Both the position numbers and the translations under genes were made by a program. From Pseudomonadales bacterium (lineage in GTDB: Bacteria; Pseudomonadota; Gammaproteobacteria; Pseudomonadales; GM7GCV1), in assembly GCA_965221105.1 (NCBI GenBank), contig OZ244871.1, positions 188,924-252,923 on the forward strand: a stretch of DNA of 64,000 nt, given 5' to 3'. The notes under the pieces are model-generated. The model was given only the letters and a program-made list of their open reading frames with translations, was not told the origin of the DNA and did no database searches. Shown here piece after piece: positions 20,246 through 62,428 of this stretch (position 1 is the first letter of the stretch; the number at the start of each line of letters is the position of its first letter).

Positions 20246-21307
20246 TCACCTGAAGGAGAAAGGGCGTACAAACTTCCCGTTCTGATCGTAAATGTCATTG
20301 AGTTGAAGCCTGAACGACCTTGCAATCCACTGCAAAACTGTGACTTCTATCTGCGCTTCAAATTCGGATTTTTCATAAACCTCCCCGAACTCAAGTAACT
20401 CACTGCTTGCAGGGTAGCCAAAAATACCCTCACCCCAATCATCTTCATACGAGTATATTGTTAACCCTCGGGCAGAAAGGATTTGGACGCGAAAACCCAT
20501 GTGCCGGAATGGCAGAAGTTGCTCCCACACCTGCCTAAACCACGCCATACTAGAAACAACGCGTTCCGCAAGCTCTGTGTATCGGATCAGCTTGGTAGCG
20601 CCATGTTGATTTCCGCGTCGGTCTTTGGAAGCTTCGGCGAGCCGCTCAGACTCACGATTTAGCGCATAGACAACTTCACAGTGTCCTGAGTTGAAAAGAT
20701 GAAAAGAGTACCCGTCAGGTCCGCTTAACTCTCCAATACGCTCATTACAGATGCCGTGCTCTGATGGTGTGGTGTCATAGCGATTAAGACCGCCTGGATA
20801 CCTATGGCCAGCTAATTGTGCGGCCTCCAGAGTTTGCTGACCAAGTTCGCCAAGAACATCTATCAGGCCAGACTCTATGTCTAAAGGAGTGAGTGAGAAG
20901 CAGATACCCAGCCCCCCTTCGCAGAAAAGCTTCCAATACTGGTTTCGGTCTTCCAATAACCGGGAATTATCGATCTTGGCAACCGCAATGTTGCCGCGAG
21001 CGAGCATTTCGGAAACCCATCGCTCGTGTTCAGACTTGGCGGACCTTAATTTATCAGAAGGCCAATCAGCCTCATTCTTGTCGATCTCTCTATGATGTGT
21101 GGGACAGAGAAGAATTAAATTCGAATACTCATCCCTTTCGTCCGACGGCAAATCATCGCTTCCACGCGGACCATTCGTCTGTCTGCCAACGATATGTGCC
21201 ATTTCACCGACCGTTTCCCGATCACCACTTGGGGTAAGCTCAAGTTTGCATAGTGCGCAGCGGTTTCCTGATCGCCCCCATAGCATTTTTAGATCGCGTT
21301 CCTTCAT
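20246..21307 (-). CDS. HNH endonuclease domain protein with an unassigned ~240-aa C-terminal domain
   Basis: CALCKLEL...GEMAHIVG...NLILLCPTHHREIDKN lies in the first 90 aa. The ORF is intact at 353 aa. Confidence 0.75.
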   Translation of the reverse strand: MKERDLKMLWGRSGNRCALCKLELTPSGDRETVGEMAHIVGRQTNGPRGSDDLPSDERDEYSNLILLCPTHHREIDKNEADWPSDKLRSAKSEHERWVSEMLARGNIAVAKIDNSRLLEDRNQYWKLFCEGGLGICFSLTPLDIESGLIDVLGELGQQTLEAAQLAGHRYPGGLNRYDTTPSEHGICNERIGELSGPDGYSFHLFNSGHCEVVYALNRESERLAEASKDRRGNQHGATKLIRYTELAERVVSSMAWFRQVWEQLLPFRHMGFRVQILSARGLTIYSYEDDWGEGIFGYPASSELLEFGEVYEKSEFEAQIEVTVLQWIARSFRLQLNDIYDQNGKFVRPFSFR

Positions 21308-23913: not shown

Positions 23914-25095
23914 TTATAAGTTCCACAAGTCGCCCTTTGCCGCTTCCGCCGCGAACCGCGCCGCCGGCCAGACGTCGATGCCGTCCGCCGACCGGAACGA
24001 CCTTCTGCCTGTGTATACCAAAATACGGCGGGTCAGCCCGGATACGGGTGCAATTGCCCGCAGCCCCTTCAACAGCGCTGTGTGATACCGGTCGGTGGCC
24101 TTCACCTCTATTGCCAGCAGGTCGTCTTCCCTCCGCAGCAGGAAATCCACCTCCACGCCTGATTGGTGGGGGGACCAGTACGCGATCTCGTCGTACAGAC
24201 GCTTTGCCTCGCCCGGCGCCCCGGTCCACGCGCCGGCATGTGCGCGCAAGGTGGTCAGCACCCAGCTTTCCAGCAGCGATCCGCGCTCCTCGGCGGTCAC
24301 TTCGCCAAGCTGTCCCTTGAGGGCGCGAACGACTCCGGGATCGATCCAGTAGAGTTTCGGCAGCTTGCGCTCGCGTACGCGGGGTCGGGTCTCGAAGGCG
24401 GGCAGGCGGTGAACGAGCAGCGTGTCTTCCAGAATTTCCAGGTAGCCACGCACGGTGCCGCGGGCTACTCCCGCGTCGCGGCCGATACCGGCAACGTTGA
24501 TTACCTGACCGTTGAAGAGCGCCGCTATCGGCAGGAAACGGACAAAACCGGGCAGATTGCGCACCAGGGCTTCCCCGCGTATTTCCTCGCGCAGGTAAAG
24601 TTGCGTATAGGATTCCAGCACGGCGTGCGGCTCCGGGTTACGCCACACCAGGGGCAGTGCGCCATAACGGAGTATCCGGTCAAGATCGAAATCCGGGTCC
24701 AGTTCGGCGGCGGTAAGCGGAAACATGGTCTTGTTGAGTGCTCGGCCGGCCAACAGGTTGACCCCTGCGGCTTTCAGCTTGCGGGCGCTCGACCCGAGCA
24801 AGGCGAAGCGCAAGCGATGCGATTCGATAAAGCGATGCACTTCGTTCAGCAGCATCGGCAGTCTCTGAATTTCGTCGACAATCACCCAGTCGTTCGGAGC
24901 CAGATGATCGATGGCTTGCGCGAACAACGAAGGGTCGCCCAACAGATCCTGGTACAGGCGTTCGTCCAGCAAATCGATGTGCAGGGAGTCGGGCAGGACG
25001 GCGCGGACCCAGGTGCTCTTGCCGACGCCTCTCATACCGAGCAGGAAGAAGCTTTGCTGCGGCAGCTTGTTGATGCGCTTATAGGTGGATAGCAT
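23914..25095 (-). CDS. AAA_14/DUF4143-type ATPase
   Basis: Walker A GMRGVGKST and Walker B WVIVDEIQR are present. The overall length and layout are typical for this family. Confidence 0.8.
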   Translation of the reverse strand: MLSTYKRINKLPQQSFFLLGMRGVGKSTWVRAVLPDSLHIDLLDERLYQDLLGDPSLFAQAIDHLAPNDWVIVDEIQRLPMLLNEVHRFIESHRLRFALLGSSARKLKAAGVNLLAGRALNKTMFPLTAAELDPDFDLDRILRYGALPLVWRNPEPHAVLESYTQLYLREEIRGEALVRNLPGFVRFLPIAALFNGQVINVAGIGRDAGVARGTVRGYLEILEDTLLVHRLPAFETRPRVRERKLPKLYWIDPGVVRALKGQLGEVTAEERGSLLESWVLTTLRAHAGAWTGAPGEAKRLYDEIAYWSPHQSGVEVDFLLRREDDLLAIEVKATDRYHTALLKGLRAIAPVSGLTRRILVYTGRRSFRSADGIDVWPAARFAAEAAKGDLWNL

Positions 25096-33732: not shown

Positions 33733-35355
33733 ATGTTTTGACCTGTCAATCGTTATATTTCTTACTCTGTTGTGAATGCCTGTTGGGTCAGGACAGGGCC
33801 AAGCAGTGTGCGATGGTGGATCATGCTGATATACGTGGATTGGTTACCGACTGGACTTCACTGCATCGCGGAGCTGGTTTTTCTCTCGTGTCAGGGATCA
33901 TCGACCGGGACTGCTCGCTTGAGGTTATCCCGTCATGGCCGATGCCGGCAGAGCCCGAACACGGGTTCTCCACACCGGCTTGACCATGCCCTGACCCAAC
34001 AGGTCTCACATCTCCTCTATTCTGTGGATATGATTGGCTGCTTCACCTGGCTGAGCCTCACCTGGCCGCCCGGCCATCGATCTTCGGCATCTCTTGGCAG
34101 GCAGCACTATCCCAAATACATCCAGCCAATTCCCGCGCCACAGCGACGCAGACCAGCTTGGTATTCTTGCCGGCCTGGGTCAGTGTCCTGTAGCGCCCAC
34201 AGAGCCGTTTCTGGGCCTTCCAGGCAATCTCTTTGGCCTCATCGGTCGCGCCGGCGGCCGTGCGTTTGAGATGGGCCGTCTGTCGTGCCGGGAAGCGATA
34301 GCTCCAGGCCGATTCAACCAGCATCCGCCGGGCATGGGCATTCCCTGTCTTGGTCATCGCGCCCTGACGGCGGCGGGTACTGCTGCTGTGTTCGCGTGGC
34401 ACCAATCCCAAAAAAGCCATCAATTGCTGTGCGGATTCGAAGCGACTGATATCACCCAGCTCTGCCAGTACGACCATCGCCGCCAGCGTGTCGATGCCGC
34501 GCAGTGCCACCAGCGAGTCCACGACCGGGGCAAGCGACCAGTGCGGCAAAGACCCGCTCCATCTGTGCCGTAATATCGGCCACACGCCGGGTCGCCGCTT
34601 TCACCGCATCAATGTACTCCTGCAACACGACCTGCTGCCAGTCATGGGCACACCGGAGTGACTCCAGCCAGCTGTAGTGGGTCTTGCTCCAGCCTGTCTT
34701 GTTTGACGGCCAGGCATGACCATGACGCAGGACACAGGCATTGAGCTGCTGACGCGCCGTGCGCTCTTGGGACTTCATGTCATCTCGCGCCCGGGTCAGA
34801 TCCCGCATCGCCTCCTGTTCTTCGTCCGACACCCAGACGACCGTCAAGTCGCCACCGCGCAACACCTGCGCCAGTGTGCGTGCATCACGCCGGTCAGTCT
34901 TGATGCGATCTCCCGGTTTCTGCGGAATCAGCGATGGCGCAATCACCTGGCAGTCTTGACCCAAGGCGATCAGTTGACGAGAGATGCTGTACCCACAGGG
35001 ACCCGCCTCATAGCACAACAACAGCACTTCACCACCACACTCTGTGCTCAGGCGCTCAACCAGCCTAGCACTGCTCTTCGGCGTGTTGCCAATCTCTCCC
35101 CTCGATTCCGCCTCGCCCCGACCAGCTCGCGCAACGGCATAGGCACTCGTATCTTTATGCACGTCAAGCCCAATAGAGGCCGGATACCGACCACCTGCCG
35201 ACCTGCTGTTGATCGCTTCACCTGCGGTGACTGTTTCGATCTGTTGCGCGTGTACTGTGCACTCTTTCATGACCTGTCCTCTCAAGAATGGCTCTGTGTT
35301 AAAGTGTCCCATTTCAACATAATCCACGTGTGTTGAGATGGGCAGGTCAAAACAT
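33733..35355 (-). mobile_element. IS110-family (IS1111-like layout) element
   Basis: A 13-bp inverted repeat ATGTTTTGACCTG sits at 33733-33745 and 35343-35355. The upstream leader is short (~85 bp) and the 3' non-coding region is long (~310 bp). Confidence 0.7.
34058..35270 (-). pseudogene. IS110-family DEDD transposase with one frameshift near 34550-34585
   Basis: IGLDVHKDT... (DEDD N-terminal domain) in ORF 34452..35327. ..LVALRGIDTLAAMVVLAELGDISRF...KTGNAHARR.. (C-terminal domain) in ORF 34058..34585. RBS GAGAGGA lies before ATG 35270. Confidence 0.8.
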
Positions 35356-39217: not shown

Positions 39218-40213
39218 CTACCTTGACAGACTCCCTATCCATTCCAGGGCACCCCCGAAATGGAACCGTTCGTCTGGGATATCCCCGAGTACTGATCGGT
39301 AGCGCCTGTGTGTCATAGCAGCCTCCGACTCATCGCGGCTCAGATTGACGACCGTGATGTCGTCCCGCGGGAGGTCCTTCAGCGCTTCGGAGAACAGCGT
39401 CCGCGCGGCCATGTCCGTTGTCGGGAACGAATAGCCGATGAACGTGACCTCGTGGGCCTTCGCCAGGCGGTCGAAAGCCTGCGCCCAGACGAGCCGAAGA
39501 ACCGGTTGTTCGACGAGGCCGGACTTCGAAAGAACAGGAGGGACCATCACGGGTTCGGGTTCCAGATGGCCGTCGACTTGTGGATGGACATAGCCGATAT
39601 CTGACCAAGCGTGATGGTGTGTGATGCTGTCGATCGCAACCGGGCTCGCATAGCCCAGTTTCGGCCTCCAATTGATCGAACCGTGGAGTTTCAGTAACAG
39701 GAGCTCCGGCTCACCTATCAGTTCCTCGCCCTTGGCAATGGTGTCCCGTGACGACGGGCAGAAAAACCCGTATCCCCAGTACGGGTTCCAACTGTCAACC
39801 CTCTCCAGCGCCTCGTCGAGGAAGTCGTCATAGTTGAAAGTGATACAGCTACTGTAATTGCTTGCGCAGAACCTGGCGAAGTGATTCAAGTCCTCGCGAT
39901 GAATGTCTCCCTTTCGAGCTTCATGGAGCCGATCGAGAAATGCTCTCTTCAATTCCGAAAGCAGAAAGCCGTATTCGTTCGCTGCGTTGCCTGATGTCTC
40001 GGCGTAGTCGTAAGGCATCAGAGAATCAAGGCGTGTCATCAGCCGCTCAAGGTCGATGTGACCTGTCGGATGGAGACTTCGTTCCCAGTCCAGCAAACGG
40101 CTCGCGTTGGGCAATCCGCGAACCCTGTCTTCAAGGACATCGTTGTTGAAATCGTCGACCAGCAGCGGCGCGTCGGGAAAGAGCGCGCGGGTGAAGCCAG
40201 CGCCGGTGACCAA
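39218..40213 (-). CDS. SIR2-like (SIR2_2-type) protein
   Basis: VTGAGFTRA..., ITFNYDDFLDEAL and LKLHGSINW are present. The start is uncertain: TTG at 40213, with the frame open upstream to the preceding gene. Confidence 0.75.
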   Translation of the reverse strand: MVTGAGFTRALFPDAPLLVDDFNNDVLEDRVRGLPNASRLLDWERSLHPTGHIDLERLMTRLDSLMPYDYAETSGNAANEYGFLLSELKRAFLDRLHEARKGDIHREDLNHFARFCASNYSSCITFNYDDFLDEALERVDSWNPYWGYGFFCPSSRDTIAKGEELIGEPELLLLKLHGSINWRPKLGYASPVAIDSITHHHAWSDIGYVHPQVDGHLEPEPVMVPPVLSKSGLVEQPVLRLVWAQAFDRLAKAHEVTFIGYSFPTTDMAARTLFSEALKDLPRDDITVVNLSRDESEAAMTHRRYRSVLGDIPDERFHFGGALEWIGSLSR

Positions 40214-40277
40214 GACATGATTGCGGGGAGGATCTGCGCTGTGTCCGCATCCACCGGGGAGGATTCCTGCGAAGACA

Positions 40278-40493
40278 TCAGGAAGCGGAGCTGAAATGCT
40301 GCTCGACTTGCTGCCTCTCCCAGTGCCACGCTTCTTCGCGTGTGGTTGCCGACCCCACCTGTTCGATGCGGCCTGTCGGCCACCGACGGAGGTGCTCGTG
40401 CTCGCGGCGCTCCAGATCGGTCGTGATGCCGATATACACGACCTTTCCGTCCACCTTGAAGCGATATCTGTAGGTCGTTCCTGCGGCCATCAT
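40278..40493 (-). CDS. Mini GIY-YIG-domain protein (~71 aa)
   Basis: YRYRFKVDGKVVYIGITTDLERREHEH...TREEAWHWE. The start is set at Met23 (GAGGGA RBS 3 nt upstream). Confidence 0.6.
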   Translation of the reverse strand: MMAAGTTYRYRFKVDGKVVYIGITTDLERREHEHLRRWPTGRIEQVGSATTREEAWHWERQQVEQHFSSAS

Positions 40494-40879
40494 GCGTCCC
40501 TCAACAGCAAGCAATATGCGTGAAGCGACTCTGTCTGTCAATACCGACAGTCGGATCAAACGGCCGGGCCTATGCGTCGAACTCTGGGACTGTGGGCGGT
40601 CTCTCGCTAAGCTCGGCCAGTTTTAACTCTACCCTGGACCCCACCGCGCAACTGCACGCGCTCCTGCGCGCATTTCAGAGAAGTTTACGACCCTTACCCC
40701 ACCAAATTCAACCAAGCGCGAGGTTTTTTCCGGTTGTGCAGTCGATCTCAGGTAGCTCGTACACCATGCGCAGTCTAGTTCCGAGGTAGATCGTGCGGTC
40801 TGGGTGGCATACGAACGCTCAGGGCGCTCAAAGCCGGAAAAATCACTATGGAGGAATGGGACTATGGATGATCACCTCA

Positions 40880-41349
40880 ACAGATGCGTTATGTGTGGGG
40901 TGGTAATAGGTCATCGACCCCAATACGCCCCGACAGATGGCTGTAATCATCGCGCTCCATCAGGACCTGCATCAGCTGGTGCTTCAGGCGCCAGCGGCGT
41001 TCTACGAAATCCCCAGGTGCCGGTGAACCGTCATCGCCGAGAGACCTTTCTTATCCTGGGTCATCACATACATCGCCTGAAACCAGACCGTCAATGGCAC
41101 TGTGGTCGACGCCCATATGGTGCCGGCGGTGATCACCGTGTCGATGACAGCGGGTACACTGCTGCAGCGTTCGTTCCGACAGCTGGCAGCAGCTGTCATG
41201 ACCACAATGGGGGCATCGAACCCCCTGCGGGCACCGCCAGGCGTAGAGTGCATCGACACGTTGATCCTCGGTGGATTCTCGGTGCCATACTGTTCAAGAC
41301 ATTCACTCACACTCAGGCCTGTGTAAACCTGAACTGGAGTGTGGGCCAT
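40880..41349 (-). pseudogene. IS1595-family transposase N-terminal fragment (frameshifted)
   Basis: ..VITAGTIWASTTVPLTVWFQAMYVMTQDKKGLSAMTVHRHLGIS.. then ..RRWRLKHQLMQVLMERD.. in another frame. A paralogous stub lies at 63111-63305. Confidence 0.6.
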
Positions 41350-41466
41350 GGTCTGTTCCTGTGGGCATCAAGAAGAGATGCTACACATGCATGCAAAAGA
41401 ACAGAGCTTGACAAAAATGGTAATGAGGTAATTTTATGATCGGACTATCAATAATAGGAGAATATC

Positions 41467-51612: not shown

Positions 51613-51859
51613 GTAACTACTCACCCCCCTTGACACCACAGGAAAGGGGTTCTCTGGTGTGTGCGTTTCATTATTGCACAGGGTAATGGGCAACGACGCA
51701 TATTTTGGTTCCAAGGCGACAGCGGGGGTGTGTCAGGCACTGATCGCACTGATGCCGCTGGCGGAGCGCCTGGCGGTGCTGGCGGCGGTCAACACCGCGT
51801 CGCTGCGCTCGGAGTTCGACGCACTCAAGGCGCGCTTCGAGGCGCTGTGTGCGGACGGC
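51613..51859 (+). mobile_element. IS66-like left-end fragment (247 bp), truncated by the IS256-like element
   Basis: GTAACTACTCACCCCCCTTGACACC... through ..ASLRSEFDALKARFEALCADG coding. The left flank is AATTAATT. Confidence 0.8.
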
Positions 51860-53238
51860 GAGTTATAACCAAATCTGGTGTATGAGGCATTGAAAAAAGG
51901 CGGCGTATCTGGTTGATGTGTTTTTGGCAAACACTACTCAACACAGGAGATACGCCACCATGAGCCAGAGTACTCTTGTTGAGTATGCAGGTCGAGCAGA
52001 GAGTCCCGATCCAGTGACCGAGCTGTTGAGAACCAGCGCCCACCAGCTGCTGTATCAGGCTGTGGGTGCCGAAGCCGAGGCGTGTGTTGCCGGTTATGAG
52101 GATCAGCGCCTGGCGGACGGACGCTTCAGGGTCGTGCGCACTGGGTATCAACCGGAGCGGGCGATACAGACCAGCCGTGGACCGGTGAGGGTTCGGATTC
52201 CCAAGGTGCGGTCGAGGGATGGTGCGCCGGTCACTGTCCGCTCGGCGCTGGTGCCGTCCTCTGTGCGCACACCCACAACGCTGGAGGCGGCCGTGCGCTG
52301 GGTGTATCTGAAGGGTGTGTCCACTGGCGAGATGGGCGCTGCGCTGGAAGTCCTGGTTGGCCCGGAGGCCAAGGGTGTGTCAGCCAGCACGGTATCGCGG
52401 TTCAAGCGCAGCTGGGCGCAGGAATACCGGGCGTGGCGCGAGGCGCCGCTGTACAAGGATCGCTGGGTGTATGTCTGGGCTGACGGCGTGGCGGCCTCAG
52501 GGCTGAGCACGCCACGCTCTGTGCCCTGGTGGTGATTGGCGTCAATGAGCGCAGTGAGAAACACTTCCTGGCGATTGAGGACGGGGTTCGGGAATCGACC
52601 CAGAGCTGGCGGGAGGTACTCTTGAGGCTGAAGTCGCGAGGCATGAATGTCCCCCAACTGGCCATCGGCGATGGTGCCATGGGCTTCTGGGCCGCGCTGG
52701 AGGAGGTCTCTCCAGAGAGCCGGCAACAGCGATGCTGGATGCACAAGACCATGAATGTGCTCAATGGCCTGCCCACATCGGTCCAGCCGAAGGCCAGGCA
52801 GGCAGTACATGAGATCTGGCAGGCCAGTACGCGGGAGGATGCGGAGCGGGCGTTCGACCTGTTCCTGGAGACCTGTGAGCCCAAGTACCCCAAGGCCGCC
52901 CTGTGTCTGGAGAAGGATAGGGATGAGCTCATGGCCTTCTACGATTTCCCGGCGCAGCACTGGCAGAGTATACGGACGAGCACTCCGATCGAATCGACCT
53001 GTGGCACGATCCGCCACCGCACCAAGCGATCAAAGGGCTGCCTGACCCGGGATGGCATGGTGCATATGATGTTCAAGCTGGGCATGTGCGCTGAGGGCAG
53101 ATGGCGCCGAGTGCGAGGCTTCGACTCCCTGGCGAAGGTCAGTACGGGAGTGAAGTTCACAGACGGAATTGAGGTGACAGCAGACAACCAGGTCGCCGCC
53201 TGATTCAGTGTCTCACACACCACTTTTGACAATAACTC
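51860..53238 (+). mobile_element. IS256-family element (1,379 bp)
   Basis: Imperfect ~35-bp IRs: GAGTTATAACCAAATCTGGTGTATGAGGCATTGAA versus the reverse complement of 53204-53238, GAGTTATTGTCAAAAGTGGTGTGTGAGACACTGAA. No target duplication is visible. Confidence 0.8.
51960..53203 (+). pseudogene. IS256-family (Mutator-like) transposase with a frameshift near 52480-52530
   Basis: ..RWVYVWADGV.. then ..LCALVVIGVNERSEKHFLAIEDGVRESTQSW...QRCWMHKTMNVLN... in the next frame. Confidence 0.8.
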
Positions 53239-53445
53239 CTGCGATTCCAGCAAACTGTTCTTTTAGGAAGTCTTCATCCAGGTGAACGGCATCTCGAAGA
53301 GTGAAATCCGAGTCTTCAGAAAAGCGGTAGGTTTCAAAGTAGCATTTTTTTAGGAAGGTACCGCCTTTAAAGACCCATGATCCAGAAAATACATCATGTG
53401 CATTAACTGCTGCCAAAAGCCAGCCGAGGACGTAGTCTTTTTCAA
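53239..53445 (-). pseudogene. abiEii: AbiEii/AbiGii-family nucleotidyltransferase toxin, internal fragment (codons ~24-92)
   Basis: EKDYVLGWLLAAVNAHDVFSGSWVFKGGTFLKKCYFETYRFSEDSDFTL.. It is cut by the tnpB unit at 53446 and by IS256 at 53238. Confidence 0.75.
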
Positions 53446-54740
53446 GGGAATTATATACCTATTGACACAGGCTACTGTTCTATGCGGCACGACGGGTACT
53501 CCCGCCGATCAATTCACCATCAGGCCGCATATCGGGGACATTCCCACCCGACGAGCCACGCTCCCTGATGTTGAGTGCGGCATTCAGGTCTCTATCGAGA
53601 CTCAAGCCGCACTGTTCACACTCAAAGACTCTGTCCTTCAGGGTCAGTGATTCATGGACTGAACCACAGCCTGAACAGGTCTTCGATGTGTTCCTGGGAT
53701 TCACCTTCACAACCGACCCACCGGCACTCTCAGCCGTGTAGGTCAGTTGTTGGATAAAGGTTCCCCATTGTTGCTCAAGGAGTGATCGGTTCAACCCCCG
53801 CTTGTGATTGCCACCATGGGCAGTCATGTTCTTGATCTTCAGGTCTTCAACAGCGAAGTGTCTGTGTCGCCTCACCAGGTCAGTAGTCGTTCTGTGCAGG
53901 GCAGTGCGCTGTCTCTCTGCGACCCTGTACGCCTCTCTGGCCAGCGATTGGCGTTTCTTATATCGGTTGTGACTGCCCCTCTTGGCTTTACTCAGTTTTC
54001 GCTGAAGCCGCTTCTGTCGGGTCCTATCAATGACCACCTTCGGCACTGACTCACCGGTCGAGAGGGTGGCCCGTGCCTTCACGCCAACATCAATACCGAC
54101 GACGGGAGACTGATCAGCCACGACCTCCCGCTCCTGCTCACAGACACACTGAACCATGACGCGAACAGGTGTTGTCACAACGCGAACCAGCGTGATCTCG
54201 CCCTCTGGCAGAGCCTTCACAATGAACCTGCCACAGCCCTTGATCTGTACGGCATGCCTCGTGCCAGACGCGAAGAGACGAAAACTGGATGTTTCAAATG
54301 ACCGGATGCCCCGGTGCCTGCCCTTGAATCTCGGAAAGCCACCCTGCTTGAAGAATCGCTTGAATGATCTATCCAGTCTGTACAGGACAGATCGGAACGG
54401 CAGCACCCCATACCCCTCAATTTCAGGATCATCATGGCGAAGAGCCGTGAATGACGTACATTGATCGTAGTAGCTGATAGACACGCCCGCCTTCCGATAC
54501 GCATTGATGCGCTCATCAAGGGCAGCGTTGTACAGTTGGCGAGAGAGATACAGGAATCTGTTCAGCCGCTGATGTGTTGCGGCTGACATCTTCGCCTGTT
54601 GACTGTAGGTGCGTATCATCCGCATCGGTGTGGTCGCTCCATCAAGCGTTTGGGGTGGTTGCTGCACACAACCTTCACGCACACTGATTCCAGTGCCTGT
54701 CCCTGTCAAGACCCTGTGTGTCAATAAGTATATAATTTCC
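53446..54740 (-). mobile_element. 1,295-bp tnpB-only unit with terminal inverted repeats and an 8-bp target duplication
   Basis: TIRs are GGGAATTATATACCTATTGACACAGG (53446-53471) and the reverse complement of 54713-54740, GGAAATTATATACTTATTGACACACAGG. The direct repeat TTTTTCAA is at 53438-53445 and 54741-54748. Confidence 0.8.
53480..54625 (-). CDS. tnpB: TnpB-like RNA-guided nuclease (OrfB_IS605 + zinc ribbon)
   Basis: 381 aa with RuvC-like GIDVGVK, FAVEDLKIKNM, DRDLNAALNI and zinc ribbon CSGCG...CEQCG. The start is set at MRMIRTY because the ORF-track extension runs into the TIR. Confidence 0.85.
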   Translation of the reverse strand: MRMIRTYSQQAKMSAATHQRLNRFLYLSRQLYNAALDERINAYRKAGVSISYYDQCTSFTALRHDDPEIEGYGVLPFRSVLYRLDRSFKRFFKQGGFPRFKGRHRGIRSFETSSFRLFASGTRHAVQIKGCGRFIVKALPEGEITLVRVVTTPVRVMVQCVCEQEREVVADQSPVVGIDVGVKARATLSTGESVPKVVIDRTRQKRLQRKLSKAKRGSHNRYKKRQSLAREAYRVAERQRTALHRTTTDLVRRHRHFAVEDLKIKNMTAHGGNHKRGLNRSLLEQQWGTFIQQLTYTAESAGGSVVKVNPRNTSKTCSGCGSVHESLTLKDRVFECEQCGLSLDRDLNAALNIRERGSSGGNVPDMRPDGELIGGSTRRAA

Positions 54741-54809
54741 TTTTTCAACAACTGGCGGCCTAAGACCTGTTTCGTCAGCAACGGCAATAATTTCTTCCCG
54801 AGTAATCAC
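54741..54809 (-). pseudogene. abiEii: AbiEii toxin, first 23 codons (GTG start 3 nt after the abiEi stop)
   Basis: VITREEIIAVADETGLRPPVVEK. Joined to 53445 it restores ..VVEKDYVLGWLL.. Confidence 0.7.
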
Positions 54810-54812
54810 AAG

Positions 54813-55601
54813 CTATAGCCTTTTGGTCGCCCATAGTCGCCATTTGGTAATGAGGTTATTGTCTTTAGTGTTTTTATCGAGAAAGGTATAGCCTGTTGTG
54901 AGATTAGCCGCGCATTCATCAACAAAAGAAGCGTCAAATTCGAGTTTTTCAGCAAGAAATCCCAGTTTTTTAAAGAGCGCACCATTGCTCAAATGTTTGG
55001 CATGGCTCAGGAGTTTTTCAAGACCTTTCTCGTCGCCATATAGTTTTTTGAATTCTAATAGGCAATCTACGGTGTGCTGCAATCCCGCCCCTAAGTACGG
55101 ATCGTCAATAATATCCAGGATCGTTTTCTGCGGATCGGAGATCTGTAGTTTCTTATTGCCCCGCCAAATCGTTTTGGTGCCGAATAGGTTTTTCTCCGGG
55201 CAGTATTTGATATAAAAATTAATGCCTTGGTGCTTGGTTTCGCCGTAGGGTGCGCGTTTACTGGTAAGCACGCACACTGATCTAAAGAGTTGCTCCGTCA
55301 GTTCCCAATGTTCGAGCGCACTCCATCCCCCGATGTATCCGGGTTCATATAGCTCAGGTACGAGAATCCAAGGATCATCGAGAACTTGGGTCTGCCCCAG
55401 GGCGTTGGGTTGAATGGGTACGTAAAGCCCTCGTGCAACACGCCTGATCGCACCTTGCTTGTGCCAGCCAGCTAGCAGTTTTGCTGCGTGCGTGCGGTCG
55501 AGATCAAGGACTTCCATCGCATCATCTATGCGGATAGTGCCGACTGTAGCGCGCATCAGAGCGGCTAAACGCCGCTGCTTTGATGAGACTTGATCAGACA
55601 T
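54813..55601 (-). CDS. abiEi: AbiEi-family antitoxin/transcriptional regulator
   Basis: It has an N-terminal wHTH (..AAKLLAGWHKQGAIRRVARGLYVP..) and a C-terminal AbiEi domain. The start is set at Met7. Confidence 0.75.
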   Translation of the reverse strand: MSDQVSSKQRRLAALMRATVGTIRIDDAMEVLDLDRTHAAKLLAGWHKQGAIRRVARGLYVPIQPNALGQTQVLDDPWILVPELYEPGYIGGWSALEHWELTEQLFRSVCVLTSKRAPYGETKHQGINFYIKYCPEKNLFGTKTIWRGNKKLQISDPQKTILDIIDDPYLGAGLQHTVDCLLEFKKLYGDEKGLEKLLSHAKHLSNGALFKKLGFLAEKLEFDASFVDECAANLTTGYTFLDKNTKDNNLITKWRLWATKRL

Positions 55602-55762
55602 AAAACTATAAAAAAACACACATTATTCGTTATTATAAAGAATACCACGTTACTTGATATAGCGCTATATGAAAAATCAATAAATTCTATATAATAGCGA
55701 ATAATGTGTATTATCGTATAGTCATGCCGGTCCCAACGGCACTCCCATTGGGATGAAACCAA

Positions 55763-57006
55763 TTATGGGCATCTCTATTAATTGCCCGAAAATGTTCAGA
55801 TACGCTGTATCCTGATTACTATGTGACAGGCTCATGACTCTCAGTATTTTCGGTTCACTTGATGACCTTCAAGATAGGCGTTTGGATGCATTGGGTGTTC
55901 CTTTGGTTGAGTTATCCAATACGACTGACTGGGAGTCATTTCGTCCTATTGTGTCCCAATTAGAAAAACGATCTGGCACAAGTAGAGCAGGTGCCCCCCG
56001 TAAGGATGTCGTGATGATGTTCACAGGGCTGATCATACACGACCTCTATGGGTTGAGTGATGACCAATGGGAGTTTCAATGAGAAGACCGACGGAGCGTT
56101 CAGCGTTGTGTAGGGTTGAAGCCTGAGCATAGGGTGCCTGACGCACAGACTTTTTGGGCATGTAAGGAACACCTGACTCGGCTGGAGTTCATTCGGCCCC
56201 TGTGTGATGTGTTTTCAAGTCAGCTCAATGACTTGGGTTATCGGGCGCGCACAGGTCCATTAGGTGATGCGAGTTGTGTACCTGGTCCTATCCAGCGTAA
56301 TAGTCGTGAAGAGCATGCGATCCCGATAGAGTGGTCACAGGATCACAAGCGCCGCCAGAAAGACACCGATGCGCACTGGACGAAGAAGAATGGCACGAGT
56401 CACTATGGCTACACGAATCATGTCACTGTGGATACTCAGAACACACTGATTCGCGGCTATGATGTCAGCGACGCTCGTGTGCATGATTCGCGGGTCTGTG
56501 AAGGCCTGCTGGATGAGAGTACTAGCACCAAGGATGTTTGGGCAGAGAGCGCGTATCGCTCTGAGGATCACGAGGCCTCATTGAAGTCAAAAGGGTATCG
56601 AAGCAAGATACACCGCACAGGGAGCCGGAATAAGCCGTTGACACAACGAGAGCGGCAAGGCAAGGCAACACAACCCGCTCCAAAACCCGATGTCGGGTTG
56701 AACATATATTTGGTGCTCAGTCGTCATTGAGGAGTACATCGATTCGCTGCATCGGCATCGCCCGTGCTAAAACCGAAATCGGTTTGATGAATGTGGTGTA
56801 TACCATGAGACGATTGTGCTTTGTACAGAGGGAAGTTGCGTCTGAACCATGAGAATTGACCGATTCATTGGCAATAATCGGGATAAAAAGCCAATGTGTT
56901 GACCACAACTCATTGGTAGAGCGATTGTACGCATAAAGGATATGCCAAAATGAGCTGATTTTTTTCAGCAACCCATAAATACCTCAATTAATAGAGGTTC
57001 CCATAA
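55763..57006 (+). mobile_element. IS5-family element (1,244 bp) with a multiply frameshifted transposase (coding 55834-56850)
   Basis: 22-bp IRs: TTATGGGCATCTCTATTAATTG versus the reverse complement TTATGGGAACCTCTATTAATTG. Transposase motifs are ..MMFTGLIIHDLYGLSDDQWEFQ.., ..QKDTDAHWTKKNGTSHYGY.NHV.VD.., ..VWAESAYRS.. and ..RVEHIFG...IGIARAKTEIGLMNVVYTMRRL, spread across three frames. Confidence 0.75.
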
Positions 57007-60990: not shown

Positions 60991-61290
60991 GTAACTACTC
61001 GCCCCCTTCTCCTGCTTGATCATTTCGGCGGCGGCGCCGTTGAGGGCGATCTGGATGGCGGTCAGCGGGTTGGAGCCTTGGTGGGCCATGCGGATATCGC
61101 GCTCGGCGCGGGTGTTGGTGAACGGGGTGTCGGGGTCGCGGCGGTGCGCAGCACCTCGGTGTCCTACTGGGTCAGCGCCTCGTGGAGGTTCTGGGCATCG
61201 GACCTGGCGATGCGCCCGCGCTGCCCGTCGAGGCGGGCGGGGGGCTTGTTCCCCTGTGGCCTGGGTGAGGATGGTCCGGTAGCGCGTGCA
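60991..61290 (-). mobile_element. IS66-like right-end fragment (inverted), with an internal deletion
   Basis: The IR is at 60991. ..PFTNTRAERDIRM is joined directly to AHQGSNPLTAIQIALNGAAAEMIKQEKG. Confidence 0.8.
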
Positions 61291-61363
61291 CACCCGGTTC
61301 ATCGTCCCGGGACGCTGTGACACCTTCGGGACCGGACACGAGCGCAGTGACAGAGATGTACTT

Positions 61364-62428
61364 ATGAGTGAAGACACACCGAAAAGACCAACTGGCCTGC
61401 CGACCACGCGGCACGATGCGCTGTTCCGCACCCTGCTGACCAATCCTGAGCGGGCAGGACAGGTCTTGCGCGATCATCTGCCAGAGCCGATTGCCACGCG
61501 TCTTGCTGCGCAGGATCCGCGATTGATCGATGGCAGTTTTGTTGATGAGGCCCTGCGCGGAAGCCAGGCCGACCGACTGTTCGAGGTGACACTGGATGGT
61601 GGCACTCCGCTGCTCATTTACGCATTGCTTGAACACAAAAGCGAACCGGACCAGAAAACCCCGCTCCAGCTTGCCGGGTATATGATCAATATCTGGAAAC
61701 GCTATGCCGATGAGCATCCAGACCTCAAGAGCCGATTGCCAGCGATCATTCCGATTGTCTTCTACCATGGTGCCGCGCACTGGACTGTTCCGCGCTCCCT
61801 GTTTGATCTGATCGAGGATGATGAGGAGATACGTCCATTCAGCCGTTCCATGGCCTATGTCCTGCGTGATATTGGTCAGATGAGCCTGGAGCAGATGTCG
61901 TCCCGCCCTGAAGTCCGGTCAGTGTTTCATGTGCTGCATATCTCGCGGCGAGACAGGATTGGGCACGAGGAACTGGCCGATATCATCGCCCCGCTTGTCG
62001 ATGGATCGGACTTGGAATCGGCCACTCTGCACTATATAGTAGGTGATCAGAAGATTACGCAGACCATGCTTGAGGCTGCGCTGCGTCAGGCGAAACCGGA
62101 ACGATGGGAGGCCCTCATGGGCACACTTGCTGAAACCTGGTTCGAACAGGGCAAAGCTGATGGGATGGCTGAGGGTGAAGCCAGAGGCAAGGCTGTTGGG
62201 ATGGCTGAGGGTGAAGCCAGAGGCAAGGCTGCTGGGATGGCTGAAGGTGAAGCCAGGGGCAAAGCTGAAACCTTCCTGCAACTGGCGCGTCTCAAATATG
62301 GCGATCTGTCCGAGCAGTGCATCGAAGCGGTGCGCATCGCCTCTGCCACGCAACTGGATCACTGGCTGCACGCTCTGCTCAGCGCTGAAACGCTGGAGGA
62401 CATTTTCAATCCTCCTCACTCACAGTGA
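61364..62428 (+). CDS. Rpn-family recombination-promoting nuclease / putative transposase (PD-(D/E)xK, YhgA-like)
   Basis: ..RHDALFRTLL...DRLFEV...IYALLEHKS...IIPIVFYHG.. The start is set at ATG 61364. Confidence 0.8.
   Translation: MSEDTPKRPTGLPTTRHDALFRTLLTNPERAGQVLRDHLPEPIATRLAAQDPRLIDGSFVDEALRGSQADRLFEVTLDGGTPLLIYALLEHKSEPDQKTPLQLAGYMINIWKRYADEHPDLKSRLPAIIPIVFYHGAAHWTVPRSLFDLIEDDEEIRPFSRSMAYVLRDIGQMSLEQMSSRPEVRSVFHVLHISRRDRIGHEELADIIAPLVDGSDLESATLHYIVGDQKITQTMLEAALRQAKPERWEALMGTLAETWFEQGKADGMAEGEARGKAVGMAEGEARGKAAGMAEGEARGKAETFLQLARLKYGDLSEQCIEAVRIASATQLDHWLHALLSAETLEDIFNPPHSQ
62162..62269 (+). repeat. Three tandem 36-bp repeats inside the Rpn gene (GMAEGEARGKA[V/A/E] x3)
   Basis: Read directly from the sequence. 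Confidence 0.9.

What the first reader, a model, noticed from the sequence alone, without database searches (positions are those of the whole stretch)
53438..54809. tnpB-only unit with terminal inverted repeats and an 8-bp target duplication, inserted into abiEii
Seen in sequence: a tnpB-like ORF with intact RuvC (D/E/D) and zinc-ribbon motifs lies in a 1,295-bp unit bounded by 26-28-bp imperfect TIRs. The unit is flanked by the direct repeat TTTTTCAA (53438-53445 and 54741-54748). Deleting the unit plus one repeat copy restores an uninterrupted AbiEii N-terminus (..GLRPPVVEKDYVLGWLLAAV..), so the duplication is a genuine insertion scar. Established knowledge: IS200/IS605-type tnpB elements move as single strands via TnpA, have subterminal hairpins rather than TIRs, and make no target duplication. 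Inference: this tnpB is carried by, or behaves as, a cut-and-paste TIR element mobilised in trans (no transposase is in the unit), or it belongs to a poorly described IS type. The expected guide-RNA region (3' end of tnpB to the TIR, ~53446-53620 on the minus strand) would then read out into abiEii sequence.
Basis: partly seen in the sequence, partly recalled or inferred. Interest (0 to 1): 0.72.

Follow-up and report, generated by a model that had tools for sequence, protein, structure and literature searches.

The report
TnpB cassette on IS1595-type transposon ends
A guide-RNA nuclease gene (tnpB) that is normally filed under hairpin-ended IS200/IS605 elements sits here in a small transposase-less unit with the inverted-repeat ends and 8-bp target duplication of the IS1595 family, so it is most likely moved in trans by an IS1595-type DDE transposase, and it has split an AbiE toxin gene.

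Summary
A 1,295-bp unit (53446-54740) carries an intact tnpB. It has 24-nt terminal inverted repeats (TIRs) and the 8-bp duplication TTTTTCAA. Removing 1,303 bp restores the AbiEii N-terminus.

Thirteen tnpB-only relatives (40-92% identical TnpB) have TIRs. Nine of them have a perfect, A/T-rich 8-bp duplication that differs at every site.

A scan of viral contigs with the TIR found elements with the same ends and 8-bp duplications. Three carry an IS1595-family transposase, four carry TnpB, and seven are MITEs or carry other cargo. No unit has both genes. The window unit is therefore a non-autonomous IS1595-type cassette with tnpB as cargo.

The 3' end of tnpB holds a conserved RNA structure with the layout of the ISDra2 guide-RNA (omegaRNA) scaffold. 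Its pseudoknot pairs GGGAA, about 100 nt upstream, with the last five bases of the TIR (TTCCC). This pairing covaries across five different TIR tips. The guide should therefore be the duplicated target plus flank, which here is abiEii sequence.

TnpBs linked to DDE transposases and solo TnpBs moved in trans were described in 2023. I found no report of the IS1595 link or the shared TIR tip. The partner transposase in this genome and the TAM (the motif TnpB needs next to its target) remain unknown.

The parts
53213..53437 (-). abiEii, distal fragment (codons after the insertion point). It is cut off again at about 53213-53245 by the neighbouring IS256-like element.
   Evidence: Pfam AbiEii E 6e-12. 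After the unit is removed the frame is continuous with 54749-54809. Homologues continue beyond ..FAGIA whereas the window does not.
53438..53445 (.). Target-site duplication, copy next to the 3' end of tnpB (TTTTTCAA; TTGAAAAA on the tnpB strand).
   Evidence: (D19).
53430..53445 (-). Predicted guide segment of the omegaRNA. It is the first 16 nt outside the element, TTGAAAAAGACTACGT: the duplicated octamer plus 8 nt of abiEii sense strand.
   Evidence: Inference from where the scaffold ends and the 16-nt guide of ISDra2 (PMC10097598). The transcript itself was not observed.
53446..53469 (-). TIR at the 3' end of tnpB (GGGAATTATATACCTATTGACACA read inward). Its outer five bases, 53446-53450 (TTCCC on the tnpB strand), form the 3' strand of the predicted pseudoknot.
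53446..53552 (-). omegaRNA-like scaffold overlapping the tnpB 3' end. Helix A is 53552-53547 with 53536-53531. The pseudoknot is 53545-53541 (GGGAA) with 53450-53446 (TTCCC). Helix B is 53530-53524 with 53488-53482. Helix C is 53507-53501 with 53496-53490.
   Evidence: RNAalifold on 11 relatives. Pair counts: 90.9% of cells paired against 31-53% when slid, and 16 of 24 pairs with compensatory changes. No Rfam family matches.
53480..54625 (-). tnpB, 381 aa, with intact RuvC D179/E260/D346 and a C4 zinc finger.
   Evidence: (ISDra2 TnpB 8H1J, E 1.6e-31 over nearly the whole length).
54717..54740 (-). TIR at the 5' end of tnpB (GGAAATTATATACTTATTGACACA on the tnpB strand).
54741..54748 (.). Target-site duplication, second copy (TTTTTCAA).
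54749..54809 (-). abiEii, proximal fragment (GTG start at 54809, MITREEIIAVADETGLRPPV..).
54813..55619 (-). abiEi antitoxin/regulator gene upstream of abiEii, apparently intact.
   Evidence: Pfam AbiEi_4, E 1e-4, 22.8 bits, just below the 25-bit cut-off. Its position directly upstream of abiEii fits an AbiE operon.

Best explanation
The unit is a non-autonomous insertion cassette of the IS1595 family that carries tnpB and its guide RNA as cargo. It is not an IS200/IS605 element.

Shown:
- It has TIRs and an 8-bp A/T-rich target duplication.
- Homologous tnpB-only units in other genomes have the same build.
- Elements with the same TIR encode IS1595-family DDE transposases.

Inferred:
- An IS1595-type transposase encoded elsewhere in the genome binds the two TIRs and inserts the unit at a cut staggered by 8 bp. 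Here the insertion site was inside abiEii.
- An omegaRNA is transcribed through the 3' end of tnpB and across the TIR. Its scaffold ends at the last base of the TIR, because TTCCC pairs with GGGAA about 100 nt upstream to form the pseudoknot that in ISDra2 sits directly before the guide.
- The guide is therefore the duplicated octamer plus the flank (TTGAAAAAGACTACGT..).
- By analogy with IS605 TnpB, the TnpB-omegaRNA complex would recognise and cut a copy of this site that lacks the element, favouring its restoration by recombination.

The TAM and the benefit to a DDE element are unknown.
For: 1. Anatomy of the window unit.

2. The build is family-wide. I examined the ends of 13 tnpB-only relatives with 40-92% identical TnpB.
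- Nine have a perfect 8-bp duplication, and the octamer differs at each site: L081 AAAAAGAT, L087 TATTTATT, L088 TAAATAAG, L089 CTTTAAAA, L171 ATAAACGA, L172 TATACTTT, L301 AACTATAT, L173 CTTACAGC, L174 CTTTGTTA.
- L300 matches at 7 of 8 positions. L170 and L299 have TIRs but no duplication. L090 is unclear.
- Sources.

3. The inner TIR differs between close copies but changes at both ends together (window ..CCTATTGACACA, L087 ..CGTGACAGCCAC).

4. Negative control: among about 230 loci with TnpBs 37% identical or less, only L140 shows a convincing TIR plus duplication.

5. The pattern GGGAAYTATATACNTRTTG, which the window's TIR matches exactly, hit 44 viral-contig stretches. Fourteen TIR pairs there have perfect 8-bp duplications:
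- L261, L266 and L275 carry a transposase. The L261 and L275 proteins match Pfam DDE_Tnp_IS1595 (E 1e-37 and 8e-45) plus Zn_ribbon_IS1595. The L275 protein matches NCBIfam transpos_IS1595 at 200 bits against a cut-off of 75. The L266 protein is 58% identical to the L275 protein.
- L267, L268, L269 and L280 carry TnpB.
- Seven are MITEs or carry other cargo.
- The window TIR is 21/24 identical to the L266 (transposase) TIR and 23/24 to an L267 (TnpB) TIR.

6. A/T-rich 8-bp direct repeats are reported for the IS1595-family element ISApl4 (PMC12561309).

7. omegaRNA:
- Conserved structure: 90.9% of cells paired against 31-53% when slid; 16 of 24 pairs have compensatory changes; covariation score 0.53 against 0.10-0.17.
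- The pseudoknot covaries with the TIR tip: GGGAA/TTCCC, GGGGA/TCCCC (L081), GGAAA/TTTCC (L090), GGTA/TACC (L268), GGCTA/TAGCC (Bosea L173, L174).
- The geometry matches ISDra2, where -5..-3 pair with -103..-105 (PMC10097598).
Against: - No IS1595 transposase with these TIRs was found in the window. The TIR occurs only twice in 64 kb.
- The IS1595-family remnant at 40.9-41.35 kb belongs to a subgroup with CCTGATTACC ends, so it is not the partner.
- I could not read the rest of this genome or of its sister genomes.
- The transposase-bearing elements with the matching TIR come from A/T-rich viral-collection contigs, far from this more G+C-rich host.
- Three of the 13 relatives lack a perfect duplication.
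- No transcript, TAM or activity has been observed.
- Why a DDE element would gain from TnpB is unresolved (discussed in PMC13565253).
Confidence: 0.8

Rival explanations
1. It is an ordinary IS200/IS605 (IS1341-group) tnpB-only element moved as single-stranded DNA by a Y1 TnpA. The TIR and the direct repeat would be coincidental.
For: The protein is a typical TnpB. Databases name its relatives 'IS200/IS605 family element transposase accessory protein TnpB' (P0010).
Against: - The 24-nt TIR has 0 chance matches.
- The duplication restores a conserved reading frame.
- Nine relatives have perfect 8-bp duplications with different sequences. Peel-and-paste transposition does not produce these (PMC13565253).
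- No asymmetric hairpin ends were seen.
Confidence: 0.02
2. Chance nesting: an IS605-type tnpB element once landed inside an unrelated MITE, and the composite has since been copied. tnpB and the TIRs would have no functional link.
For: MITEs with the same TIRs exist (L270, L256, L263, L265, L273). IS1595-type ends carry many unrelated cargos.
Against: - Only 34 nt separate the tnpB stop codon from the element's end, which leaves no room for an IS605 right end.
- The scaffold's pseudoknot uses the TIR tip and covaries with it over five different tips, in TnpBs down to about 27-40% identity.
- This shows long co-evolution of the RNA with the TIR.
Confidence: 0.05
3. The TIRs are used by a different transposase that also makes 8-bp duplications (IS256, ISL3, IS6, IS66 or an undescribed enzyme). 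An example would be the IS256-like element next door.
For: - An IS256-family (Transposase_mut) gene lies 240 bp away. From my own knowledge, IS256 elements make 8-9-bp duplications.
- No IS1595 partner was found in this genome.
Against: - The unit's TIR occurs nowhere else in the window, so not at the IS256-like, IS110 or IS5-like copies.
- The only transposases found inside elements with this TIR are IS1595-family.
Confidence: 0.08
4. The unit is a dead relic, or TnpB here has a fixed, non-flank guide (for example the TIR itself) and serves a role other than homing.
For: - The conserved motif AGAACAGTA lies 24-60 nt before the element's end, so a scaffold ending there would make the TIR the guide.
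- The two TIRs differ at 2 of 24 positions.
- Copies within one genome differ by 8-16%.
Against: - The catalytic triad and zinc finger are intact.
- At least 30 paralogues, in several 90%-identity clusters, lie in two sister genomes.
- The pseudoknot places the scaffold's end at the TIR tip, with ISDra2-like spacing.
Confidence: 0.07

Closest known systems
IS200/IS605 family, IS1341 group (tnpB-only elements; ISDra2 TnpB as the studied example)
   Same: - The TnpB protein aligns over nearly its whole length with ISDra2 TnpB (8H1J/8BF8, E about 1e-31).
- It has the RuvC D-E-D triad and the zinc finger.
- The omegaRNA overlaps the 3' end of the gene, with a pseudoknot between the nucleotides just before the guide and a site about 100 nt upstream (one search compared).
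   Different: - It has TIRs instead of asymmetric subterminal hairpins.
- It makes an 8-bp target duplication.
- It inserts at variable A/T-rich octamers rather than next to a fixed 4-5-nt target.
- No Y1 TnpA is implied.
DDE-transposase-associated TnpB branches (DDE-1 to DDE-6; Altae-Tran et al. 2023, PMC10691335)
   Same: - TnpB lies inside inverted terminal repeats.
- The 3' end of tnpB is within 250 bp of the transposon end.
- Solo TnpBs carry the ends of transposase-bearing elements and are presumed to be moved in trans.
   Different: - The families named in the texts I could read are IS630 (paper) and ISL2, IS630 and IS1031 (review PMC13565253), not IS1595.
- Here no unit carries both genes, so the link cannot be seen from gene neighbourhood.
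- The duplication is 8 bp.
- Use of the TIR tip as the pseudoknot strand is not mentioned in those texts.
IS1595 family insertion sequences, their passenger-carrying forms and MITEs (Siguier et al. 2009; ISApl4, PMC12561309)
   Same: - TIRs starting with GG and A/T-rich 8-bp direct repeats.
- The TIR is shared with elements that encode DDE_Tnp_IS1595 plus Zn_ribbon_IS1595 transposases.
- From memory of the ISfinder family table, the ends fit the ISNwi1-group consensus ggnnatTAT. I could not verify this here.
   Different: - The unit has no transposase.
- The cargo is an RNA-guided nuclease whose guide-RNA scaffold incorporates the TIR.
Fanzor (eukaryotic TnpB homologues) inside TIR/TSD DNA transposons (Bao and Jurka 2013, PMC3627910)
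   Same: A TnpB-family nuclease rides as a passenger in DDE-type transposons that have TIRs and target duplications.
   Different: This case is prokaryotic, involves a different transposon superfamily, has a compact TnpB-type protein, and the units are solo cassettes.

Membership tests
IS200/IS605 (IS1341 group) | Encodes a TnpB (OrfB_IS605) protein | tested here: met
   Pfam and NCBIfam hits. It scores 189 bits on the NCBIfam IS200_TnpB model, below that model's 425-bit cut-off.
IS200/IS605 (IS1341 group) | No terminal inverted repeats; asymmetric ends with subterminal hairpins | tested here: not met
   The TIR matches at 22 of 24 positions with 0 chance matches. Relatives have TIRs too.
IS200/IS605 (IS1341 group) | No target-site duplication; insertion 3' of a fixed 4-5-nt target | tested here: not met
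   The window and 9 relatives have an 8-bp duplication with a different octamer at each site.
IS1595 family (as a non-autonomous derivative) | TIRs shared with elements that encode a DDE_Tnp_IS1595 transposase | tested here: met
   The TIRs of L261, L266 and L275 are 19-21/24 identical to the window's. The L261 and L275 transposases are confirmed by Pfam, and the L275 one also by NCBIfam.
IS1595 family (as a non-autonomous derivative) | 8-bp (7-9), A/T-rich direct target repeats | tested here: met
   Literature: PMC12561309.
IS1595 family (as a non-autonomous derivative) | Own IS1595-type transposase gene (needed for full, autonomous membership) | tested here: not met
   The 1,295-bp unit holds only tnpB. 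It is therefore a cassette (MIC-like), not an IS in the strict sense.
IS1595 family (as a non-autonomous derivative) | A partner transposase with matching TIRs in the same genome | tested here: inconclusive
   None lies in the 64-kb window. The remnant at 40.9-41.35 kb is of another subgroup. The rest of the genome could not be read.
IS1595 family, ISNwi1 subgroup | End consensus ggnnatTAT (recalled from the ISfinder table) | not testable with these tools
   GGGAATTAT fits the recalled consensus, but no ISfinder data or ISNwi1 sequence was available. The recalled CcTGATT consensus for the IS1595 subgroup did fit L303.
OMEGA system (TnpB plus omegaRNA) | Intact RuvC D-E-D triad and zinc finger | tested here: met
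   D179, E260, D346 and C317/C320/C336/C339 are invariant in alignment A1.
OMEGA system (TnpB plus omegaRNA) | Structured RNA overlapping the 3' end of tnpB, with a pseudoknot directly before a flank-derived guide | tested here: met
   Covariation supports the structure and the geometry matches ISDra2. This is computational only; no transcript data exist.
OMEGA system (TnpB plus omegaRNA) | TAM-dependent, RNA-guided DNA cleavage | not testable with these tools
   The sequences 5' of the duplication show no clear motif. G is at position -1 in most of the proteobacterial copies, which is too weak to call.
DDE-associated TnpB branches (PMC10691335) | tnpB and a DDE transposase gene within one pair of inverted repeats | tested here: not met
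   In every unit whose two ends were found, tnpB and the transposase are in separate units. No locus with a tnpB hit also had a transposase hit.
AbiE type IV toxin-antitoxin / abortive infection | Adjacent abiEi and intact abiEii genes | tested here: not met
   abiEii is split by the unit and truncated at about 53213 by an IS256-like element. The system is inactivated.

The most novel reading that the evidence does not exclude
A widespread and old TnpB lineage exists only as transposase-less cassettes on IS1595-type ends. It is seen here in gammaproteobacterial metagenome-assembled genomes, in Bosea plasmids and in A/T-rich contigs of the viral collection. The last five bases of the TIR serve both as the transposon tip and as the pseudoknot strand of the omegaRNA. 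Every insertion would therefore automatically set the 8-bp target duplication plus flank as the guide. This would extend RNA-guided homing to DDE elements that make target duplications. It would also explain how many 'solo' TnpBs move, and it includes MITEs that carry only the omegaRNA (L279).
Probability: 0.45. Interest if true: 0.7.

Novelty: new variant of a known kind. Interest (0 to 1): 0.55.

Why it matters
- **Annotation.** Pipelines file these genes under IS200/IS605. Their ends and target duplications show a different transposition chemistry, so element boundaries and mobility are being mis-stated.
- **Solo TnpBs.** Most TnpBs are 'solo', and how they move is an open question. Here the partner family can only be seen through the shared TIR, not through neighbouring genes, which suggests a general way to assign solo TnpBs.
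- **Guide-RNA boundary.** The TIR tip and the duplication give a base-exact end for the omegaRNA scaffold and start for the guide. This is what searches for compact genome editors need.
- **A testable link.** The same five bases are constrained both by the element's terminus and by the RNA pseudoknot. That allows a direct test of whether RNA-guided homing benefits DDE transposons, which a 2026 review treats as unresolved (PMC13565253).
- **Local effect.** The insertion, together with a second IS, has inactivated an AbiE defence locus.

Tried and rejected
- **Metagenome and viral scans with alignment A1.** These served only as a negative control for TIR plus duplication.
- **Exact look-ups of the closest paralogues P0001 and P0004.** They are not on record, so the 2.77-Mb contig that holds most close copies could not be read.
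- **Rfam at E up to 1 over 52500-56000.** No omegaRNA family matched; there was only one sub-threshold snoRNA hit.
- **Sigma-70 promoter scan of the unit.** None found.
- **BLAST of the TIRs against plasmids.** The Bosea TIR hit only its own elements. The window TIR gave no match, possibly because of the low-complexity filter.
- **The neighbouring IS256-like element as partner.** Rejected, because its ends do not carry the TIR.
- **The window's IS1595-family remnant (40.9-41.35 kb) as partner.** Rejected, because intact relatives have CCTGATTACC ends.
- **RNAalifold's nested pairing of the TIR tip with the DRD-codon region (columns 75-79).** This has 1 compensatory pair. I set it aside in favour of the pseudoknot with the GGGAA loop, which covaries across clades.
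- **A TAM from the sequence 5' of the duplication.** No convincing motif emerged.
- **Literature searches for TnpB with IS1595.** Nothing relevant was found.
Full report
**Observation**

- On the plus strand the host octamer TTTTTCAA (53438-53445) is followed by GGGAATTATATACCTATTGACACA.
- At the other end, TGTGTCAATAAGTATATAATTTCC (54717-54740) is followed by TTTTTCAA (54741-54748).
- The repeat finder reports the inverted pair as 26 nt at 92%, and the direct repeat as 9 nt with a spacing of 1,303.
- The degenerate 24-mer occurs only at these two places in 64 kb. None of 100 shuffles gave a match.
- The unit has no second copy in the window.
- The only long ORF is tnpB on the minus strand. 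Taken from the ATG at 54625 to the stop at 53480 it is 381 aa.
- It matches Pfam OrfB_IS605 and Cas12f1-like_TNB and NCBIfam guided_TnpB.
- It aligns over nearly its whole length with ISDra2 TnpB (8H1J, E 1.6e-31).
- In an alignment of 40 clade members, D179, E260, D346 and the four zinc-finger cysteines are invariant.

**The duplication is a real insertion scar**

- Deleting exactly 1,303 bp gives MITREEIIAVADETGLRPPVVEKDYVLGWLLAAV... in one frame. One base more or fewer breaks it.
- Thirteen AbiEii homologues (59-73% identical) align over the junction without a gap. V-E-K-D is invariant.
- The gene therefore does not naturally carry the octamer twice.
- abiEii is also cut off at about 53213-53245 by an IS256-family element whose transposase gene is frameshifted.

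**The build belongs to the whole family**

The closest TnpBs (80-92% identical) sit in three long metagenome contigs. At least 30 paralogues fall in several 90%-identity clusters. I could read some of these copies and more distant relatives. On the tnpB strand the flanks of the TIRs are:

| Locus | TnpB identity to the window | 8-bp flank repeat |
|---|---|---|
| L087 | 88% | TATTTATT |
| L088 | 80% | TAAATAAG |
| L089 | 80% | CTTTAAAA |
| L081 | 61% | AAAAAGAT |
| L171 | 49% | ATAAACGA |
| L172 | 47% | TATACTTT |
| L301 | 45% | AACTATAT |
| L300 | 48% | TTTAACTC / TTTAATTC (7 of 8) |
| L173 (Bosea plasmid) | about 40% | CTTACAGC |
| L174 (Bosea plasmid) | about 40% | CTTTGTTA |

- The two Bosea units have a different TIR sequence from the rest.
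- L170 and L299 have TIRs but no duplication, and L090 is unclear.
- All these units are tnpB-only, 1.2-1.4 kb long, and inserted among ordinary genes.
- In close copies the inner half of the TIR differs but changes at both ends together (window CCTATTGACACA, L087 CGTGACAGCCAC). This is what one expects of functional transposase-binding sites.
- As a control, I ran the same TIR-plus-duplication test on about 230 loci with TnpBs 37% identical or less. Only L140 was convincing, and its TIR is of the same type. A handful of low-complexity matches were at the chance level.

**Which transposase**

I scanned the viral-contig collection with GGGAAYTATATACNTRTTG, a pattern the window's TIR fits exactly. 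It returned 44 stretches. Fourteen plus/minus TIR pairs there are flanked by perfect 8-bp duplications.

- Three (L261, L266, L275; 2.2-2.5 kb) carry a 303-331-aa protein.
  - The L261 and L275 proteins match Pfam DDE_Tnp_IS1595 (E 1e-37 and 8e-45) plus Zn_ribbon_IS1595.
  - The L275 protein also matches NCBIfam 'IS1595 family transposase' at 200 bits against a cut-off of 75.
  - The L266 protein is 58% identical to the L275 protein.
- Four carry TnpB: L268 and L280 alone, L269 with a second ORF, and L267 as a truncated copy.
- Seven are MITEs of 238-614 bp or carry other cargo.
- No unit has both genes.
- The window TIR is 21/24 identical to the TIR of the transposase-bearing L266, and 23/24 to a TIR of the TnpB-bearing L267.
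- A/T-rich 8-bp direct repeats are what the IS1595-family element ISApl4 makes (PMC12561309).
- From memory of the ISfinder table, GGGAATTAT fits the ISNwi1-subgroup end consensus. I could not check this.

I conclude that the window unit is a non-autonomous IS1595-type cassette.

**Partner in this genome**

- None was found.
- The window does contain an IS1595-family transposase remnant (about 40900-41350, minus strand). It has several frameshifts and is truncated before the DDE domain.
- An intact relative (L303) has CCTGATTACC ends. That is another subgroup, so this remnant is not the partner.
- The other transposase genes I checked in the window are IS256-like, IS110, IS5-like and YhgA-like. 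None carries the TIR.

**Guide RNA**

I aligned the last 220 nt of 11 elements.

- Three nested helices are conserved, overlapping the tnpB 3' end.
- With the pseudoknot added, 90.9% of cells pair, against 31-53% when partners are slid by 1-3 columns.
- Sixteen of 24 pairs have compensatory changes, and no shuffle of 500 reached any of the observed measures.
- The pseudoknot pairs GGGAA (53545-53541, about -100) with the last five bases of the element, TTCCC (53450-53446).
- It covaries with the TIR tip: GGGGA/TCCCC in L081, GGAAA/TTTCC in L090, GGTA/TACC in L268 and GGCTA/TAGCC in both Bosea elements.
- In the ISDra2 cryo-EM structure the pseudoknot is formed by -5 to -3 with -103 to -105, directly before the 16-nt guide (PMC10097598). 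The geometry is the same.
- The scaffold therefore ends at the TIR tip.
- This is inference from covariation; no transcript was seen, and Rfam has no matching family.
- I could not derive a TAM. The bases 5' of the duplication show only a weak preference for G at -1.

**Comparison with what is known**

- IS200/IS605 elements have no TIRs and make no duplications (PMC13565253). Membership of that family fails on both features, although the protein and RNA work like those of ISDra2.
- Altae-Tran et al. 2023 described six DDE-associated TnpB branches with inverted terminal repeats. They noted solo TnpBs with the ends of transposase-bearing elements, probably moved in trans (PMC10691335).
- The families named in that paper and in a 2026 review are IS630, ISL2 and IS1031.
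- I found nothing on IS1595 with TnpB. I could not read the paper's supplementary tables.
- What seems new is the IS1595 link, the strictly separate carriage of tnpB and transposase, and the dual use of the TIR tip.
- I therefore rate it a new variant of a known kind, of moderate interest.

**What is shown and what is inferred**

- Shown: the anatomy, the insertion scar, the family-wide TIR plus duplication, the TIR shared with IS1595-transposase elements, and the covarying RNA structure.
- Inferred: mobilisation in trans in this genome, the guide sequence, and any homing function.

Noticed in passing
window 51918-53203 (+), ends roughly 51650-53245: An IS256-family (Transposase_mut) element whose transposase gene is split by a frameshift into ORFs of 205 and 224 aa. 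It truncates abiEii about 230 bp from the tnpB unit, so the AbiE locus has been hit twice. It is G+C-rich (62%) compared with the window average of 52%.
   Followed up: partly
window about 40900-41350 (-): Remnant of an IS1595-family transposase gene (zinc ribbon and helix-turn-helix part only, at least 3 frameshifts, DDE domain missing). An 84%-identical fragment lies in the 2.81-Mb sister contig (P0305). Intact relatives (P0266, L303) have CCTGATTACC ends, a different subgroup from the tnpB unit's ends.
   Followed up: yes
L279 5851-6088; L267 8073-8574: A 238-bp MITE with the same TIRs and an 8-bp duplication (TTAAAAGA) consists almost only of the omegaRNA scaffold (91% identical to the 3' 129 nt of the L289 tnpB unit). 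L267 is a 502-bp deletion derivative that keeps the TnpB C-terminus and the scaffold. Such guide-RNA-only satellites could use TnpB in trans.
   Followed up: partly
L087 2367-2403; L088 and L089 at the same end; L089 2346-2370: In the copies from the sister genomes, the TIR at the 5' end of tnpB is followed 17 nt later by an inverted copy of its own tip (GGGAATTATA...TATAATTCCC), a potential hairpin or extra binding site. L089 also has a 12-bp tandem duplication of the tip. The window copy lacks both, and its first ~75 nt are unrelated to those of L087.
   Followed up: no
L269 9438-11553; L275 2685-4884; L261 4945-7428; L276 4092-5370: The same IS1595-type ends carry other cargo. L269 has TnpB plus a 263-aa ORF that looked like a GIY-YIG nuclease by eye (no Pfam hit). 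L275 has the transposase plus a 277-aa repeat-rich ORF. L261 has the transposase plus a 309-aa ORF. L276 has small ORFs only.
   Followed up: no
L174 4236-4280; L173 right end: In the Bosea plasmid units the TIR at the 3' end of tnpB is the outer arm of a near-perfect palindrome (CCGGCATCCGAGGatcaaCCTCGGATGCCGG). L174 interrupts an adenylate-kinase-like gene, and its flank repeat can be read as 8 or 9 bp (CTTTGTTA(G)).
   Followed up: no
window 39218-40559 (-): A SIR2_2-domain protein (331 aa) lies next to a 93-aa ORF that looks like a GIY-YIG motif (..VVYIGITTDLERREHEH..). This may be a defence-island context. An AAA_14/DUF4143 ATPase (23914-25095) and an HNH_2 protein (20246-21307) lie further off.
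   Followed up: no
window 34452-35327 (-), 55834-56730 (+), 61286-62428 (+): Further mobile-element genes: an IS110-family DEDD transposase, an IS5-like DDE_Tnp_1 fragment that appears to be split, and a YhgA-like Transposase_31 protein. The window is dense in IS elements.
   Followed up: no
clusters of P0001-P0008: TnpB paralogues within one genome differ by 8-20% yet form several clusters of near-identical copies (18, 6 and 5 members). This points to several long-lived subfamilies, each with recent copies, rather than one burst.
   Followed up: no
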